Assembly: GCA_021815445.1 (NCBI GenBank)
Contig: JAKAGM010000001.1
Span: forward strand, 67,447-131,446
Length of the DNA: 64,000 nucleotides
Direction: 5' to 3'
DNA from: a bacterium
Lineage (GTDB): Bacteria; Patescibacteriota; Patescibacteriia; UBA10025
The notes under the pieces are model-generated. The model made no database searches and had not been told where the DNA came from. It saw nothing but the letters and a program-made list of their open reading frames with translations. Made by a program: the position numbers and the translations under genes. This document shows, piece by piece, positions 1,910 through 20,670 of this stretch. Positions within the stretch are counted from its first letter, which is position 1, and every line of letters starts with the position of its first letter.

Positions 1910-2095
1910 TTCCCATGGTTCATCTTTGCCACGGTCGGTTCATCCTTTGACTCTCATAGGATCTCTTACCGGTCGTGGTTTTTTTATTTGACCCCGTTAG
2001 AAAGTGTACAGGAACTTTTCTTAAGTATTTTAGGATTTTGAGTTCATGGAGGACTATTATTTCAATTTAAGTATTATGTACATTTTCTAACGGGG

Positions 2096-11345: not shown

Positions 11346-11525
11346 ATGCGCATTGTCATCATATCTCTCGTGCCTGTATGTTCGGTCGTAGCTCTTCTTG
11401 CGCCTTATCACGAGACATTTGTGGCTTTCGCGATCGTTATTTTCATATTCGCTGGTATGGCCAATACCAAGCCACGAAATAGTGCTTTTTTCAGTTCGCT
11501 GTTCCGATCCATTTTCAGTCGATAG
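11346..11525 (+). CDS. possible small membrane protein (59 aa, 2 TM)
   Basis: GGAGGG RBS 5 nt before the ATG at 11346; TTGACA promoter-like at ~11271; terminator at 11614-11640 downstream; hydrophobic product. Confidence 0.3.
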   Translation: MRIVIISLVPVCSVVALLAPYHETFVAFAIVIFIFAGMANTKPRNSAFFSSLFRSIFSR

Positions 11526-11613
11526 GGGTGCATTCGACGAAACTGATGAATGCTGCCACTCAGCCTCCTTAGTCCACTCGCCGATGCAACTTCGGTTCGG
11601 GCCCGCACAAAAA

Positions 11614-11640
11614 TCCCCAACGTATGTTGGGATTTTTTAT
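11614..11640 (+). terminator. rho-independent terminator (TCCCCAAC-gtat-GTTGGGA + T6)
   Basis: stem-loop followed by TTTTTTAT. Confidence 0.5.
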
Positions 11641-11653
11641 ATTGTGGAAATAT

Positions 11654-11675
11654 CAGTGTGTTAACACATTGGTAC
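11654..11675 (+). repeat. copy 1 of palindromic motif CAGTGTGTTAACACATTGGTAC (core TGTGTTAACACA)
   Basis: 12-bp perfect palindrome core; 20/22 identical to the site at 13680-13701; intergenic, ~60 bp upstream of the putative promoter of the 11774 gene. Confidence 0.5.
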
Positions 11676-11773
11676 ATATTATTTCCTATTCATTCCCAGT
11701 TGACGCCCCTGAGACCGGGTGCTAGGATTCCCTGAAGTTGTTCTTTCCACAATGCAAACAAAGGGAGCATACC

Positions 11774-12985
11774 ATGCATAAACGTATCGGCGGTGGCACG
11801 ATCGAAACTATCACTATCTCAGTCGATGGGAGACTTCAGCAGGTACCCGCGCGCGTCGGCCTTTTTGGGACCGGGATCTGCGTCATCCATGACGGTCCCC
11901 GAAACCTTGGTGTCCCATATTGGGAAAACCAGCTCGTCCATGAACTTCGTGAGGGAGGTGAAGAGGATCTCGCAGTTTTGTATACGCCTGACAACCTGGT
12001 CTATCAACGGATTCAATCGGTCTTTTCCGGGGTACGCCAGGCGCTGCGCATACTCGACGGCAACTACGGAGTTTCATTTGCTGCGGGGATGAAAGGGAGG
12101 CTGGTCGGGGCTGTCGCCACATTGAGAATGATCAATAGCGCGGCGACAGGACTGTGGACGACGACTATCGAAACTCAGATCGAAGGATTTCACAAACTGG
12201 TCGAAAGGCTCATCGGGCAGATCGGCACCCGGCCGACTGACTACCGGAAGCGGGAGGTATTAAAGATCGCCGAGGCGATCTCAGACGGGAAAGACAGCAC
12301 CGGCAGAGTCAACCAGACTGTCGTCATGGCCAAGTCTGTCGCCGGAATGAACCGCGTCGAATCAGTCATTGACGGCATCCTCAGTATCGAGCCAGTCATA
12401 GTCGCGCGGCAGCGTGCGTTCATCAACATGCTTCATCTTGCGGAGGGCGTCACGATTGGTGCAAGGGAATTTCTCGAAAAGCTCTTTGCGATGGAGAATG
12501 CTGCCATCTCGTCTGCCAAGCCCCAGATCGATTCAGCGCTTGGTTTCTACATTCAGGAGTTCACCGAGATGGACTTCTCGCCATATTTCCGGACTTTCTA
12601 CATGTGCGCCCGCGAATTCGGTGATGCGCAGAAGCACCTTCGGGAGGATCGCGTTGATGAAGCGCTTGCTGTGCTTCGCCAAAGCCTCGAGTCGCTCAAA
12701 ATCAGGGTTGTGCGAACCGATGTCGAACGCCTCCTCCTGGTGATCGAGCTTCACAGGATCAATCCTCGGGAACATAAGGTGGATATCCGCCATATTCACA
12801 GTACGCTTGGCGACGCGGTGAAGACACTGAGTGCCGTGAATGAAAGCGGTTTTGCCCTTCCGGTTACCGAAGAAGCGGTCAGGTCCCTTTCGTACGCACG
12901 AGAGCTTATAGCTACGGCGAACTCAGTGAGTTCGCTCAACGCGGAATTCGATCATACGGTTCGCGAGGGCATCAAACTTCTCTAA
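11774..12985 (+). CDS. hypothetical protein (403 aa, soluble, no recognised domain)
   Basis: ATG with AAGGGAG RBS; the ORF-track TTG start at 11738 is less likely; terminator follows. Confidence 0.55.
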   Translation: MHKRIGGGTIETITISVDGRLQQVPARVGLFGTGICVIHDGPRNLGVPYWENQLVHELREGGEEDLAVLYTPDNLVYQRIQSVFSGVRQALRILDGNYGVSFAAGMKGRLVGAVATLRMINSAATGLWTTTIETQIEGFHKLVERLIGQIGTRPTDYRKREVLKIAEAISDGKDSTGRVNQTVVMAKSVAGMNRVESVIDGILSIEPVIVARQRAFINMLHLAEGVTIGAREFLEKLFAMENAAISSAKPQIDSALGFYIQEFTEMDFSPYFRTFYMCAREFGDAQKHLREDRVDEALAVLRQSLESLKIRVVRTDVERLLLVIELHRINPREHKVDIRHIHSTLGDAVKTLSAVNESGFALPVTEEAVRSLSYARELIATANSVSSLNAEFDHTVREGIKLL

Positions 12986-13001
12986 TGTACATTCAAGTAG
13001 T

Positions 13002-13025
13002 AACTCCCTTCGGGGAGTTTTTTTA
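13002..13025 (+). terminator. rho-independent terminator (AACTCCC-ttcg-GGGAGTT + T8)
   Basis: perfect stem with GNRA-like loop and T-run 17 nt after the stop. Confidence 0.65.
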
Positions 13026-13101
13026 TTCATGATGTATGAATTGATGAGAACACCAAAACATTTTTTTCCTCATCTTGACACTTATAATAAGGAGAAATAA
13101 G

Positions 13102-13176
13102 ATGCTATTAATGCAGTTCTTTTCTATTTCGATCTCTATGTCAGCTGATTCCATTCAATCTTCGATAACCCTTTGA
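13102..13176 (+). CDS. possible 24-aa leader peptide/uORF (MLLMQFFSISISMSADSIQSSITL)
   Basis: strong AAGGAG RBS 8 nt upstream, TATAAT box at 13084-13089, located in the 5' region of the 13207 membrane-protein gene; speculative. Confidence 0.2.
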   Translation: MLLMQFFSISISMSADSIQSSITL

Positions 13177-13206
13177 TGGTACTGTCATGAAAAGGAGGAT
13201 CCGTGT

Positions 13207-13578
13207 ATGGATAGAGTAAGAAAGTCATTACTGGTGTCGGCAGTGGGCTTAATTGTGCTTGTCGGTGCGCTTGTGATCAAGAACCAGCCCGCGCCTCGCG
13301 CACTTGTGTGGGCGGGGACCATCTATCCGGTGATCACCGGGCTTATCACCCTGCTCTTTGCCAGGTATGAGCGCATGAGGGCAATGGCTTTCGTGGTGCT
13401 AGCTGGCGGCGCAGTGATGATGATCTGTGCGGCTACCCGAATGCAGGGTGAGTGGCAGTACTCAACCCTTGCGGTCGAAATTGTCGTTATGTCAATCGTG
13501 ACGTGGGCGATTCCGACTCAGGTCGTCGTACCCCGGTGGTCTGAGAATCTGCCGGATAGTCTCGACCATTGCTTCTAG
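13207..13578 (+). CDS. integral membrane protein (4 TM), hypothetical
   Basis: GGAGGA RBS; 123 aa hydrophobic. Confidence 0.5.
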   Translation: MDRVRKSLLVSAVGLIVLVGALVIKNQPAPRALVWAGTIYPVITGLITLLFARYERMRAMAFVVLAGGAVMMICAATRMQGEWQYSTLAVEIVVMSIVTWAIPTQVVVPRWSENLPDSLDHCF

Positions 13579-13592
13579 CCCCCGTGATCAAC

Positions 13593-13619
13593 AATCGGAT
13601 CTTTCTCCCGATTTTTTCT
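13593..13619 (+). terminator. rho-independent terminator (AATCGG-9 nt-CCGATT + T6)
   Basis: stem-loop plus TTTTTTCTT after the stop at 13578. Confidence 0.5.
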
Positions 13620-13675
13620 TCAGGCGCAGCTTGAATGAAGGTTGGGAGTTTTTTTAATTTGTAGAGTACCAATGT

Positions 13676-13701
13676 GTTAACACACTGGTACGTCTCATTT
13701 T
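13676..13701 (+). repeat. copy 2 of palindromic motif: GTACCAATGTGTTAACACACTGGTAC (26-bp near-perfect palindrome) followed by a T8 run
   Basis: same TGTGTTAACACA core as 11654-11675 with GTACCA/TGGTAC arms; intergenic. Confidence 0.55.
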
Positions 13702-13852
13702 TTTTACGGCATCGGCTGTTTATAGTCCACCGTACCCAAGTAGTATTGACATAACAACTTTCATATAATAAGGTTGGTGAACAAAATATCGCACATCGTC
13801 AATTTACGTACGACAAGATAACCAGTTGAATGTACAGGAAGGAGTATAAAGG

Positions 13853-14323
13853 ATGCAGAATCCGGAAATTGTTGTTGATGAGAAGGTAAGCAAGATTACC
13901 ATCCACCGTGTAGCTGACCGTCTCGGAATCGCCGCGGAGCTGTTCGGACGTCTGGGCGAGGAGGGACTGTGCGTCGGCATTATGACAGTCGGTGACATAA
14001 TCGATAGTCACACGGACATATCGATTATCGTGGCCGCGGATATCGCCGACAGTACGATGAAGGCGCTGGAAAGCATGCGTGAGGAGCTTGGAGCTTCCAC
14101 GGTCACTCGCAGCAACGACGCTGTGGCTATAAGCGTGCTTACCAAAAGCATGCATCAACCCGGTTTTGCGGGCCGTGTTTTTCGCGCGCTTACTGCCGCA
14201 AACGTCAGAATCGACATGATCACGGCGATGAAAGAAGGCATGACCTGCGTCATTGACGAACGATTTCAGGATACAGCTCTTGAGGCGCTCAGATTGGAGT
14301 TCCCGGAGGCAAAAGAATCCTGA
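13853..14323 (+). CDS. tandem ACT-domain protein (aspartate-kinase regulatory-domain-like)
   Basis: 156 aa; two ACT-like repeats (...ITIHRVADRLGIAAELFGRLGEEGL...; ...ISVLTKSMHQPGFAGRVFRALTAANVRIDMI...); AAGGAG RBS. Confidence 0.55.
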   Translation: MQNPEIVVDEKVSKITIHRVADRLGIAAELFGRLGEEGLCVGIMTVGDIIDSHTDISIIVAADIADSTMKALESMREELGASTVTRSNDAVAISVLTKSMHQPGFAGRVFRALTAANVRIDMITAMKEGMTCVIDERFQDTALEALRLEFPEAKES

Positions 14324-14390: not shown

Positions 14391-14443
14391 GTGTAAGTGC
14401 GTTTGTAAGGATTAGCAAAAATCAGTATACTAAATGCATTCAT

Positions 14444-15838
14444 ATGCCAGAAACCACTATCATGGACAAGTTAATTTCCCTCTGCAAACGGAGAGGTTTC
14501 ATTTTCCCATCAGGTGAAATGTACGGCGGATTGCAGGGGTTCTGGGACTTCGGCCCTTTGGGGGTAGAGTTAAAAAACAACATCAAGCGCTCATGGTGGA
14601 AACGGTTTGTGCAGGAACGTGGAGACATAGTCGGCCAGGACGCGGCGATTATTACAAACCCAAAAGTATGGGAAAAGAGTGGTCATGTCGCAGGATTTCA
14701 TGACGCGTTAGTTGAATGTAAGAAATGTCATAAAAGATTTCGTAAGGAAGATTTTGATTCTATAAGTCAGTTCGATCATTACAAGAATGATATAAAAAGT
14801 AGGAAAAGTTTTTTATCGCAAATGAAATGTCCCTATTGTTTGGCTGAAGTACAAATAGGGAAAATTTTTACAGAACCTAAGAGCTTTAATCTAATGTTCA
14901 AGACGTTCGTTGGTCCGACAGAGGATACTGCCAGCGAGACGTATTTGCGCCCTGAAACGGCCCAGAATATTTTCGTTAACTTTGATACGGTGCGCCAGTC
15001 CATGCGGTTAAAGGTTCCTTTCGGAATTGGACAGATAGGTAAAGCATTCCGGAATGAAATAACCCCCGGCAATTTTATCTTCCGCTCGCGCGAATTCGAG
15101 CAAATGGAGATTGAATACTTTGTAAATCCGAAGGATGACGAAAAGTGGTTCAAAACGTGGGTTGATGCGAGCTACCAGTGGTTTACCGATTTAGGGCTCA
15201 AGAAAGAAAATCTGAGATTTTTTGAGCAGCCGAAAAAGGAGCTTGCCCACTATTCAAAAGCGACGACCGATATTGAATACAAGTTCCCGTTTGACAAAGG
15301 TTGGGCAGAGCTGATGGGTATTGCAAACAGGACTGATTACGATTTGAAAGCACATGGCCTGACGTACCGTGATGAAGTCTCCAAAGATGAGTTTGTGCCG
15401 TACGTCATTGAGCCGTCTGCGGGAGTAGACCGCGCGGCGCTGGCATTCCTACTGGATGCATACCATGAGGTTGAGGGCGGGCGGTCAACAACGACTGAAA
15501 GCAATAAGGAACAGGAAACCGTTCTCCGTCTGCACAAGGATTTGTCACCCGTAAAAGTTGCCGTTCTGCCGCTCTCGAAAAAGCAACAACTATCATCGGT
15601 GGCCCAGGGACTAGCCGAACAGCTTCGCAAAAAATTCACGACAGCGTATGACGAGGTGTCGTCCATCGGGCGCAGGTATCGCCGGCAGGATGAGATAGGC
15701 ACGCCGTATTGCGTTACAGTGGATTTTGACTCTTTGGAAGATAAAAAGGTCACGGTTCGTGATAGAGATACGATGAAACAGGATAGGGTTGCTACAGGGG
15801 AGCTAGTCGAATATCTAAGTGAAAAGTTGAACATATGA
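14444..15838 (+). CDS. glyQS: glycine--tRNA ligase, alpha2 (class II, eukaryote/archaea-like) type
   Basis: ...LCKRRGFIFPSGEMYGGLQGFWDFGPLG...; the ORF-track GTG start at 14375 lies in the upstream terminator, so the ATG at 14444 (or 14462) is chosen. Confidence 0.85.
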   Translation: MPETTIMDKLISLCKRRGFIFPSGEMYGGLQGFWDFGPLGVELKNNIKRSWWKRFVQERGDIVGQDAAIITNPKVWEKSGHVAGFHDALVECKKCHKRFRKEDFDSISQFDHYKNDIKSRKSFLSQMKCPYCLAEVQIGKIFTEPKSFNLMFKTFVGPTEDTASETYLRPETAQNIFVNFDTVRQSMRLKVPFGIGQIGKAFRNEITPGNFIFRSREFEQMEIEYFVNPKDDEKWFKTWVDASYQWFTDLGLKKENLRFFEQPKKELAHYSKATTDIEYKFPFDKGWAELMGIANRTDYDLKAHGLTYRDEVSKDEFVPYVIEPSAGVDRAALAFLLDAYHEVEGGRSTTTESNKEQETVLRLHKDLSPVKVAVLPLSKKQQLSSVAQGLAEQLRKKFTTAYDEVSSIGRRYRRQDEIGTPYCVTVDFDSLEDKKVTVRDRDTMKQDRVATGELVEYLSEKLNI

Positions 15839-18192: not shown

Positions 18193-18321
18193 CGAGCAAG
18201 TAAAGGACCGTGTGGTTGACTCGGCGAAATGTTTTTGATACCTGTAAAAATAAGTTTGAGTTGGTGTATTTTTCGCTTACCTGAGCTTACGAATATCGCA
18301 ATATGTTCAAAAGAAAATAAC

Positions 18322-18448
18322 TGCCCCTCCGGGCGGGCTCCACTTTTCTTTGCTCGTCCAAAGAAAAGTGGAGAGAAAAGAAAAGACGTCGCGGCGCAAA
18401 CTCACCCCACCCCATCGGATGGCGTGGGGTTCAGACAGTGCGCCGCGA
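18322..18448 (+). repeat. copy A of ~130-nt structured intergenic repeat: three hairpins including CCACTTTTCTTTG-ctcgtc-CAAAGAAAAGTGG
   Basis: ~85% identical to 20538-20670; differences in hairpin 3 are compensatory; the overlapping ORFs are in different frames in the two copies. Confidence 0.6.
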
Positions 18449-20482: not shown

Positions 20483-20537
20483 CCTCGTCGAATGATGGGG
20501 GAAGGATCCCGATGTTCTGCGCATGGGATTTTTTTAG

Positions 20538-20670
20538 TTCTCCTCCGGAGGGGCTCCACTTTTCTTTGCTCGTCCAAAGAAAAGTGGAGAGAAAAGAAAG
20601 GACGTCGCGGCGCAAACTCACCCCGCACCATTTGATGGTGCAGGGTTCAAACATGCGCCGCGAGGGATGC
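20538..20670 (+). repeat. copy B of ~130-nt structured intergenic repeat
   Basis: see 18322-18448; contains the same 13-bp stem hairpin and a covarying distal hairpin (CCCCGCACCAT-ttg-ATGGTGCAGGG). Confidence 0.6.

What the first reader, a model, noticed from the sequence alone, without database searches (positions are those of the whole stretch)
11654..13701. Two copies of a 22-26 bp palindromic motif (core TGTGTTAACACA) ~2 kb apart
CAGTGTGTTAACACATTGGTAC (11654-11675) and GTACCAATGTGTTAACACACTGGTAC (13676-13701) share 20/22 positions. The second is a 26-bp near-perfect palindrome followed by T8. Both lie in intergenic regions between a terminator and the next promoter. Together they bracket two hypothetical genes (11774-12985 and 13207-13578). 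They could be operators for a dimeric regulator that co-regulates the two downstream transcription units. They could be bidirectional terminator hairpins. They could also be inverted termini of a small mobile or invertible segment.
Basis: seen in the sequence. Interest (0 to 1): 0.55.

Follow-up and report, generated by a model that had tools for sequence, protein, structure and literature searches.

The report
Operator sites of a TrpR-like regulator
The two palindromes are most likely binding sites for a small TrpR/YerC-type DNA-binding regulator that is widespread in the tiny-genome "candidate phyla radiation" bacteria; this is an ordinary kind of gene switch, but not one described before for this group.

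Summary
The 12-mer core occurs twice in 64 kb (0.03 expected). A weight-matrix scan gives 41 and 38 bits for the two sites and -4 for the next best.

The window is a Patescibacteria (CPR) chromosome. The same 26-bp palindrome, GTAYCARTGTGTTAACACAYTGRTAC, recurs in unrelated CPR genomes with 29-53% GC.

In all nine CPR loci fetched around a YerC/YecD-type TrpR-family gene (PF01371), a copy sits in that gene's own promoter. In six of them the -10 hexamer is site positions 5-10, with a TTGAC(A/G) -35 element 19 bp upstream. That is classical autorepression. The motif changes with the regulator clade and shares 7-bp arms (GTACCAG against GTACTAG) with the E. coli trp operator.

The terminator and mobile or invertible-segment readings are not.

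Open points:
- The regulator gene is not in the window and could not be located in the source genome.
- The window sites lie 24 and 54 bp upstream of the predicted -35 elements, not over the promoters.
- In other genomes some sites lie between convergent genes.

This is a new lineage-specific operator of a known regulator family. Interest is moderate.

The parts
11650..11675 (.). The left outer arm is degenerate (ATAT instead of GTAC).
   Evidence: Weight-matrix score 38.5 bits.
13666..13691 (.). Site 2: GTACCAATGTGTTAACACACTGGTAC, a 26-bp palindrome with one A.C mismatch (positions 7 and 20).
   Evidence: I22. Weight-matrix score 41.3 bits.
11616..11638 (+). Intrinsic-terminator-like hairpin plus T6 that ends the upstream unit, 12 nt before site 1.
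   Evidence: Folds at -11.1 kcal/mol.
11700..11728 (+). Promoter-like TTGACG-17-TAGGAT (TG-extended). Its -35 element starts 24 nt after site 1.
11774..12985 (+). 403-aa protein of a CPR-restricted uncharacterised family. It is the first gene downstream of site 1.
   Evidence: No Pfam or NCBIfam hit. 91 cluster representatives. AF2 model pLDDT 93 with no PDB fold match.
13207..13578 (+). 123-aa predicted membrane protein with its own promoter (13075-13103) and terminator. No site lies in front of it.
   Evidence: Weak homologue in L050.
13605..13656 (+). Terminator hairpin plus T7 that ends the 123-aa gene, 9 nt before site 2.
   Evidence: Folds at -22.3 kcal/mol, z = -4.0.
13698..13705 (+). 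T8 run 6 nt after site 2.
13746..13774 (+). Promoter-like TTGACA-17-TAAGGT. Its -35 element starts 54 nt after site 2.
13853..14323 (+). 156-aa double-ACT-domain protein (like the regulatory domain of aspartate kinase). It is the first gene downstream of site 2.
14462..15838 (+). Glycine-tRNA ligase. It has its own promoter-like TTGTAA-17-TATACT (14403-14431), also conserved in L045 and L050, so control by site 2 is doubtful.
   Evidence: NF003211, 625 bits. Promoter.

Best explanation
Each palindrome is a double-stranded DNA binding site (operator) for a roughly 100-aa helix-turn-helix regulator of the TrpR family, YerC/YecD (HisR-like) branch. This regulator is widespread in Patescibacteria.

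Shown here:
- The motif is a conserved CPR element.
- In every regulator locus examined, a copy is built into the regulator's own promoter over the -10 hexamer and transcription start. That is the layout of autorepression.
- Motif variants follow regulator clades.

Inferred:
- The 26-bp site reads as four GTRTYAA arms (positions 1-7 and 9-15, plus their mirror images). That makes two overlapping 18-bp TrpR-type operators (7-bp arm, 4-bp centre, 7-bp arm) offset by 8 bp, so it may bind two dimers.
- In this genome the regulator, encoded outside the window, binds both sites. It modulates the promoters 24 and 54 bp downstream, which drive the 403-aa gene and the ACT-domain gene. By family analogy this would respond to an amino-acid-like ligand.
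- Because the sites lie upstream of the -35 element (centre near -72.5 for site 1), simple promoter occlusion is unlikely. Activation, cooperative binding or looping, or blocking of read-through from the upstream unit are the options. Which one applies is not known.
For: Independent recurrence:
- A genome-collection scan with the 18-mer gave 22 hits. Seven were in Patescibacteria MAGs, including 3 and 2 contigs of single MAGs. All seven carry a 26-bp match to GTATCAATGTGTTAACACATTGATAC, perfect in six (L011 ends in T).
- A metagenome scan with the 26-mer gave 8 more contigs, two of which (L026, L032) are contigs already found.

Link to the regulator:
- In L005, L014 and L017 the site lies beside a 98-103-aa PF01371/TIGR02531 gene.
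- Six further loci were fetched by protein only (L033, L034, L037, L038, L041, L043). Every one has a motif copy ending 2-48 bp before that gene's start codon, and no copy elsewhere in the +/-10 kb apart from 1-2 extra copies within 1.8 kb.

Fixed register in the promoter:
- In L005, L014, L017, L034, L037 and L043 a TTGAC(A/G) -35 element starts 19 bp before the site, and the -10 hexamer is site positions 5-10.
- In L033 and L038 the site begins inside the -10 hexamer and covers the transcription start.

Co-variation between regulator and motif:
- Recognition helix STTTVARVAHWL goes with ...ATGTGTTAACACAT...
- P0134 (STSTVARVAHWL) goes with GTACCAACGTATTACTACGTTGGTAC.
- P0085 (STATITRVAHWL, heading a his operon) goes with TGTTTTA-N6-TAAAACA, the published HisR type.

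Family resemblance: the published TrpR consensus is TGTAcTnGTnnACnAgTACA and HisR operators are 20-bp palindromes (PMC9413887). The window arm GTACCAG matches the trp arm GTACTAG at 6 of 7 positions.

It is a DNA site, not an RNA structure:
- Mismatches show no strand-consistent G.U pattern (by eye on the sites).
- Flank complementarity barely exceeds a cross-site control, 3.9 against 3.4 of 8.
- There is no Rfam match.

A syntenic relative (L045-L049) keeps one site in the same neighbourhood, again exactly 24 bp before a TTGACA.
Against: - No PF01371 gene lies in the 64-kb window. None from the source genome's 877-881-kb contig appeared in the 120 hits listed by each of two family searches. 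The regulator's presence in this genome is therefore unverified.
- The window sites do not overlap the predicted core promoters.
- In other CPR contigs, perfect copies fill short spacers between convergent genes (GatB/MiaA, MiaA/EEP, a 254-aa ORF/UppS, an ORF/SIMPL). No promoter is expected there.
- Two of three relatives carrying the 403-aa-family gene have no site at all (L050, L051).
- No binding experiment exists.
Confidence: 0.72

Rival explanations
1. The palindromes are bidirectional transcription terminators, or 3'-end RNA hairpins. They might also be protein-assisted roadblocks acting at the ends of genes.
For: - As RNA they fold at -13 to -19 kcal/mol, with z of -2.8 to -5.3 on the better strand.
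- Site 2 is followed by T8. The consensus scan lists site 1 as terminator-like.
- In other CPR contigs, copies lie just after stop codons and between convergent genes.
Against: - Both window sites come 9-12 nt after a separate, stronger terminator.
- Site 1 has no T-run. The T8 of site 2 starts 6 nt after the stem.
- The sequence itself is invariant across genomes of 29-53% GC, with no compensatory drift.
- Copies in regulator promoters sit upstream of coding starts in a fixed register with the -35 and -10 elements.
Confidence: 0.12
2. The two copies are inverted termini or recombination sites (dif/IMEX-like or invertase sites) of a 2-kb mobile or invertible segment carrying the two hypothetical genes.
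For: - The copies form an exact 22-bp inverted repeat 2 kb apart.
- A layout of 10-11-bp arms around GTTAAC resembles tyrosine-recombinase core sites.
- One site in L022 lies 33 bp after a XerC/D-like integrase gene.
- Sites come and go among relatives.
Against: - No integrase or transposase lies in or near the segment.
- No target-site duplication is visible in the flanks as read.
- The segment's GC content matches its surroundings.
- The 403-aa-family gene and a membrane-protein gene occupy the same syntenic slot (T4SS pilin ... GlyRS) in L045 (one site) and L050 (no site). They are resident genes, not a cassette.
- All places returned for the 403-aa protein (9 contigs read) have the same arrangement.
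- Elsewhere the motif occurs singly and inside promoters.
Confidence: 0.03
3. The sites are bound by a different conserved protein, for example a parS/Noc-like or nucleoid-organising factor. Their adjacency to the YerC-like gene would then be incidental.
For: - The 26-bp sequence is conserved across CPR classes to a degree that recalls parS.
- Some sites lie away from promoters.
- The regulator is unverified in the source genome.
Against: - 9 of 9 regulator promoters carry the motif, 8 of them in a defined register with the -35 and -10 elements.
- Motif variants track regulator clades.
- The arm architecture matches TrpR-family operators.
Confidence: 0.08

Closest known systems
HisR (YerC) histidine repressor regulons of Firmicutes and other phyla (TrpR family; Ashniev et al. 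2022, PMC9413887)
   Same: - Same protein family and branch: TIGR02531, 86 bits. E about 1e-19 to the solved YerC/HisR-like structures 3FRW, 3G1C and 3KOR.
- Palindromic operator, frequent autoregulation, small regulon.
- One homologue fetched here (P0085, L039) heads a his operon and carries the published HisR-type site.
   Different: - The CPR operator is 26-28 bp (tGTAYCARTGTGTTAACACAYTGRTACa). It is not the 20-bp cacTTTAnnnnnnTAAAgtg.
- The recognition helix differs: STTTVA against STATIS.
- No his genes lie at the CPR sites. Neighbours are glyA, LOG-like genes, DUF8173-glmM-murI, a tRNA-His gene, and here a 403-aa unknown and an ACT protein.
- The effector is unknown.
- CPR genomes were not covered in that study.
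E. coli TrpR and the trp operator (consensus TGTAcTnGTnnACnAgTACA, as quoted in PMC9413887)
   Same: - GTAC ends and a GTnnAC centre.
- The 7-bp arm GTACTAG against the window's GTACCAG (6 of 7).
- Layout of 7-bp arm, 4-bp centre, 7-bp arm.
- The CPR site's four arms are offset by 8 bp. From memory, this is the spacing at which TrpR dimers bind in tandem (a lead, not tested here).
   Different: - The site is 8 bp longer overall.
- It reads as two overlapping sub-operators rather than one.
- The protein scores below the TrpR equivalog cut-off (31 against 67 bits).
- The window sites are not over the promoter.
Palindromic intergenic elements at gene 3' ends (intrinsic bidirectional terminators, REP elements)
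   Same: Intergenic, palindromic, and often found just after stop codons or between convergent genes in other CPR contigs.
   Different: - Very low copy number: 2 in 64 kb, with nothing else above -4 bits.
- The sequence is conserved across classes.
- There is no GTAG head and no adjacent U-tract.
- Copies are embedded in promoters of a specific regulator gene.

Membership tests
TrpR-family (PF01371, YerC/YecD/HisR branch) repressor-operator system | Operator is a dyad-symmetric DNA site of about 18-20 bp with two 7-bp arms | tested here: met
   The site is a 26-bp palindrome. It decomposes into two overlapping sub-sites, each with a 7-bp arm, a 4-bp centre and a 7-bp arm (arms GTRTYAA at 1-7 and 9-15, plus mirror images). 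This is read directly from the sequences.
TrpR-family (PF01371, YerC/YecD/HisR branch) repressor-operator system | A cognate PF01371 regulator is encoded in the same genome | not testable with these tools
   The gene is absent from the 64-kb window. The rest of the 877-881-kb source contig could not be read. None of the 120 hits listed by either family search came from it.
TrpR-family (PF01371, YerC/YecD/HisR branch) repressor-operator system | An operator copy lies in the regulator's own promoter (autoregulation) | tested here: met
   Met in 9 of 9 CPR regulator loci from other genomes. In 6 the -10 hexamer is site positions 5-10, and in 2 the site covers the transcription start. Not testable for the source genome.
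TrpR-family (PF01371, YerC/YecD/HisR branch) repressor-operator system | The operator overlaps the core promoter of target genes | tested here: not met
   The window sites end 24 and 54 nt upstream of the predicted -35 hexamers. No TTGACA lies 19 bp from either site on either strand (and direct reading).
TrpR-family (PF01371, YerC/YecD/HisR branch) repressor-operator system | Sequence matches a published family consensus (HisR cacTTTAnnnnnnTAAAgtg, or TrpR TGTAcTnGTnnACnAgTACA) | tested here: not met
   There is no TTTA-N6-TAAA. The site shares the TGTAC ends and GTnnAC centre with TrpR, but the half-sites are 4 bp longer on each side. This is a new lineage-specific consensus.
TrpR-family (PF01371, YerC/YecD/HisR branch) repressor-operator system | Binding depends on an amino-acid co-repressor | not testable with these tools
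   No experiment was possible. Gene contexts (glyA, a tRNA-His gene, a shikimate cluster, an ACT protein) are only hints.
Intrinsic (Rho-independent) terminator | A G+C-rich stem-loop followed immediately by a U-tract | tested here: inconclusive
   The scan lists site 1 (10 pairs, 3 of them GC, tail CATATTATTT) but not site 2. The T8 of site 2 starts 6 nt after the stem. Separate canonical terminators lie just upstream of both sites.
Mobile or invertible DNA segment bounded by inverted repeats | A recombinase or transposase gene, target-site duplication, and variable presence or orientation of the segment | tested here: not met
   No such gene was found. The flanks show no duplication. The genes are syntenic in relatives with one site or none. 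All assemblies seen have the same orientation.
REP/RAYT-type repetitive extragenic palindromes | Many copies per genome, species-specific sequence, GTAG head | tested here: not met
   There are two copies in 64 kb and no weaker relatives. The sequence is identical across CPR classes.

The most novel reading that the evidence does not exclude
The YerC-like protein and its 26-bp palindrome are more than a promoter switch. In the compact CPR genomes they would serve as a protein-dependent, orientation-independent transcription stop or insulator placed at gene ends.

This would explain three things:
- Perfect copies fill roughly 60-bp spacers between convergent genes such as GatB and MiaA.
- Copies flank the regulator gene on both sides.
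- Both window copies sit between a terminator and the next promoter.
Probability: 0.12. Interest if true: 0.7.

Novelty: new member of a known kind. Interest (0 to 1): 0.4.

Why it matters
Very little is known about gene regulation in Patescibacteria. These bacteria have few transcription factors and are mostly uncultured. This work pairs a regulator family with a highly conserved 26-bp operator and a reproducible autoregulatory promoter design.

That pairing gives a directly testable regulon for CPR genomes, through motif scans, DAP-seq or EMSA with a 100-aa protein. It also extends the TrpR/HisR family to a new operator geometry that may bind two dimers.

For this window, it assigns a likely regulatory input to a CPR-specific 403-aa protein of unknown fold and to a stand-alone ACT-domain protein.

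Tried and rejected
- **Chance.** Rejected by shuffles and the weight-matrix scan.
- **Known RNA family.** No Rfam hit at gathering threshold in the window or in 7 related loci, and none on the sites in an E <= 1 scan of 11400-14000.
- **Hairpin covariation in the flanks.** Long perfect palindromes (up to 38 bp in L029) suggested structure. A cross-site control showed that the flanks simply share a weak consensus, ttcTT|site|AAgaa (3.9 against 3.4 complementary pairs of 8). Core mismatches show no strand-consistent G.U bias.
- **Regulator inside the window.** tblastn and an HMM built from 120 homologues found nothing.
- **Regulator in the source genome.** Two family searches list only their best 120 hits, and none came from the 877/881-kb contig. 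P0134, from an 851-kb contig, proved to be a different organism.
- **Glycine regulon idea.** The regulator lies beside glyA in 5 genomes, and GlyRS lies downstream of site 2. The idea is weakened because GlyRS has its own promoter, TTGTAA-17-TATA(C/A)T, conserved in the window, L045 and L050. A tRNA-His gene (L041), a his operon (L039) and a shikimate cluster (L043) point to other ligands.
- **Literature.** The core sequence appears only in unrelated primers. No paper links Patescibacteria with TrpR or YerC regulation.
Full report
**Observation.**
Copy 1 (CAGTGTGTTAACACATTGGTAC) is at 11654-11675 as reported. Copy 2 (GTACCAATGTGTTAACACACTGGTAC) lies at 13666-13691, 10 nt left of the reported position. 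A T8 run follows at 13698-13705.

Bases 13666-13687 are the exact reverse complement of copy 1 (22/22), and the direct match is 20/22. The 12-mer core with up to 1 mismatch occurs twice against 0.03 expected. The 18-mer with up to 3 mismatches finds only these two. A 26-nt weight matrix built later scores them at 41.3 and 38.5 bits, with the next best position in 64 kb at -4.1.

Each copy lies 9-12 nt after a terminator hairpin plus T-run: 11616-11638, and 13605-13656 at -22.3 kcal/mol. Each is upstream of a promoter-like element: TTGACG-17-TAGGAT at 11700 and TTGACA-17-TAAGGT at 13746.

**Where the window comes from.**
The 403-aa protein maps to an 877-kb metagenome contig, and to 881 kb in another assembly. 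Gene content includes a PF18895 T4SS pilin, ClpC, GlyRS, MetRS and an F-type ATPase, with many ORFs lacking a Pfam match.

Homologues of the 403-aa protein come from the Parcubacteria group and Kerfeldbacteria. A syntenic locus occurs in Parcubacteria GW2011_GWC2_49_9. Together these place the window in Patescibacteria (CPR), near Kerfeldbacteria.

**The motif is a conserved CPR element.**
One scan of species-representative genomes with CARTGTGTTAACACAYTG gave 22 hits, of the order of the rough chance expectation of about 35 that I estimated for an 18-mer of this degeneracy in 596 Gb (not a tool result). Seven were in Patescibacteria MAGs, including three contigs of one MAG and two of another. 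All seven carry a 26-bp match to GTATCAATGTGTTAACACATTGATAC, perfect in six; L011 ends in T. A metagenome scan with the 26-mer GTAYCARTGTGTTAACACAYTGRTAC gave 8 more contigs with 33-53% GC, two of which (L026, L032) are contigs already found.

**Link to a regulator.**
In L005, L014 and L017 the perfect site lies 24-43 bp after the stop codon of a 98-103-aa gene. That gene matches Pfam Trp_repressor (E = 3e-23) and NCBIfam TIGR02531 YerC/YecD (86 bits against a cut-off of 42).

The family is common in CPR, with 1332 hits. Its closest solved structures are the YerC/HisR-like proteins 3FRW, 3G1C and 3KOR.

I then fetched six loci by protein alone: L033, L034, L037, L038, L041 and L043. Every one has a motif copy ending 2-48 bp before the regulator's start codon. 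Re-scanning showed the same for L005, L014 and L017. Within the +/-10 kb of these loci the only other copies lie within 1.8 kb of the regulator gene.

The register is fixed:
- In six loci a TTGAC(A/G) hexamer starts 19 bp before the site, and the -10 hexamer (TAATGT, TAGTGT, TAACGT or TAGCGT) is site positions 5-10.
- In L033 and L038 the site begins inside the -10 hexamer and covers the transcription start.

This is the standard anatomy of autorepression.

**Co-variation.**
Regulators with the helix STTTVARVAHWL go with ...ATGTGTTAACACAT... cores. P0134 (STSTVARVAHWL) goes with GTACCAACGTATTACTACGTTGGTAC, present three times in L043. P0085 (STATITRVAHWL) heads a hisZ/S-hisGDCBHAFIE operon and has TGTTTTA-N6-TAAAACA 1 bp before its ATG. 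That is the HisR type published for Firmicutes, cacTTTAnnnnnnTAAAgtg (PMC9413887).

The same paper gives the TrpR consensus as TGTAcTnGTnnACnAgTACA. The CPR site shares the TGTAC ends and the GTnnAC centre but is 8 bp longer.

Read directly, the 26-mer contains four GTRTYAA arms at 1-7 and 9-15, plus their mirror images at 12-18 and 20-26. That makes two overlapping sub-operators, each with a 7-bp arm, a 4-bp centre and a 7-bp arm, offset by 8 bp. The window arm GTACCAG matches the trp operator arm GTACTAG at 6 of 7 positions. I infer that two dimers may bind each site. Tandem TrpR binding at an 8-bp offset is recalled from memory and was not tested.

**DNA site or RNA hairpin?**
Long perfect palindromes, up to 38 bp in L029, first suggested structural covariation. 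The flanks in fact share a weak consensus (ttcTT|site|AAgaa). Pairing the left flank of one site with the right flank of another gives almost the same complementarity, 3.4 against 3.9 of 8.

Core mismatches are G.T on one strand at some sites and on the other strand at others. Rfam finds nothing. As RNA the window sites fold at -13 to -19 kcal/mol, but each follows a separate and stronger terminator.

**Relatives of the window locus.**
The gene order ClpC, T4SS pilin (-), 403-aa family, membrane protein, GlyRS, M16 peptidase, AI-2E transporter, S21 (-), TP-methylase is conserved in L045-L049 and in L050.

- L045 has one site, TTATTAAAGTGTTAACACATTAATAC (31 bits). It lies between the small ORFs and the membrane-protein gene, exactly 24 nt before a TTGACA-17-TAACGT promoter. 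That is the same gap as for site 1 in the window.
- L050 and L051 have none.

So the bracketed genes are resident genes, not a cassette, and the sites turn over among distant relatives (31-40% protein identity). The ACT gene is present only in the window lineage. GlyRS has its own conserved promoter-like element in all three genomes, so it is probably not controlled by site 2.

**What remains unexplained.**
- In other CPR contigs, perfect copies occupy short spacers between convergent genes: GatB/MiaA in L029, MiaA/EEP in L027, a 254-aa ORF/UppS in L032 and an ORF/SIMPL in L028. No promoter is expected there.
- The window sites are upstream of their promoters, not over them. Site 1 is centred near -72.5.

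**Verdict.**
The two palindromes are best explained as operators of a CPR-wide YerC/YecD-type TrpR-family regulator (confidence about 0.7).

The kind of system is well known. The 26-bp operator, its promoter design and its CPR distribution do not appear in the searchable literature. This is therefore a new member of a known kind, of moderate interest.

Noticed in passing
window 18320-18445 and 20536-20661: Two direct copies of about 125 nt (about 90% identical) lie 2.2 kb apart and bracket the TP-methylase and HAD-hydrolase genes. Each folds into three hairpins, including the 36-nt palindrome CTCCACTTTTCTTTGCTCGTCCAAAGAAAAGTGGAG. Folding z-scores are -5.3 to -9.0 on either strand. The differences between copies in hairpins 1 and 3 look compensatory. 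There is no Rfam match, and the element is absent from all related loci held. It may be an unknown small RNA or a regulatory module.
   Followed up: partly
L005 6132, L014 2014, L017 6594, L034 9904, L037 9908, L033 9922, L038 9920, L043 9893: A perfect DnaA-box consensus TTATCCACA lies 9 nt upstream of the -35 element of the YerC-like gene's promoter in five genomes. It is inverted in two more and has one mismatch in an eighth. Seven of the 17 perfect boxes in 414 kb of fetched DNA are at this one position, and an eighth lies 19 bp before the site in L011. This suggests DnaA also controls this regulator.
   Followed up: partly
window 11774-12985: The 403-aa protein belongs to a family seen only in Patescibacteria, with 91 cluster representatives of about 400 aa. 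Its AlphaFold model is confident (pLDDT 93, pTM 0.89): a small N-terminal beta domain plus long helical bundles. Foldseek finds no significant match in the PDB.
   Followed up: partly
L041 7970-8112: In a CPR contig where the YerC-like gene lies between nrdD and nrdG, a second motif copy ends 5 bp before the -35 element (TTTACA-17-TAAAAT) of a tRNA-His gene. This is the only hint that ties the CPR branch to histidine, as in HisR.
   Followed up: partly
L003 1580-1650, L010 3795-3865, L020 865-935: Three Desulfobacterales/Deltaproteobacteria MAGs share a conserved element of about 65 nt. It has a hairpin, GAGGGTGATTC-N4-GAATCACCCTC, followed by CAGTGTGTTAACACACTG. It appears unrelated to the CPR system and has no Rfam match.
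   Followed up: no
window 11700-11728, 13075-13103, 13746-13774: Three neighbouring promoters share the form TTGAC(A/G)-17-TA(A/G)G(A/G)T. Two also contain TATAATAAGG in a position too close to the -35 element to serve as a -10 hexamer. This may be a lineage-specific promoter feature.
   Followed up: no
L045 9820-9900: Upstream of the 410-aa orthologue, where the window has site 1, the relative instead has a run of TACGAAT/CGAATGT repeats and a palindrome, ATACGTATAAAGCGCGTATTCGTAT. This may be another regulator's binding array.
   Followed up: no
window 1991-2010 and 2077-2096: A 20-nt inverted repeat (95% complementary, ACCCCGTTAGAAAGTGTACA / TGTACATTTTCTAACGGGGT) with 66 nt between the arms lies just upstream of the ORF that starts at 2145.
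   Followed up: no
window 13853-14323: A stand-alone double-ACT-domain gene, resembling the regulatory domain of aspartate kinase, lies between the membrane-protein gene and GlyRS only in this lineage. It has a single homologue (53% identity) in 5.8 billion proteins.
   Followed up: partly
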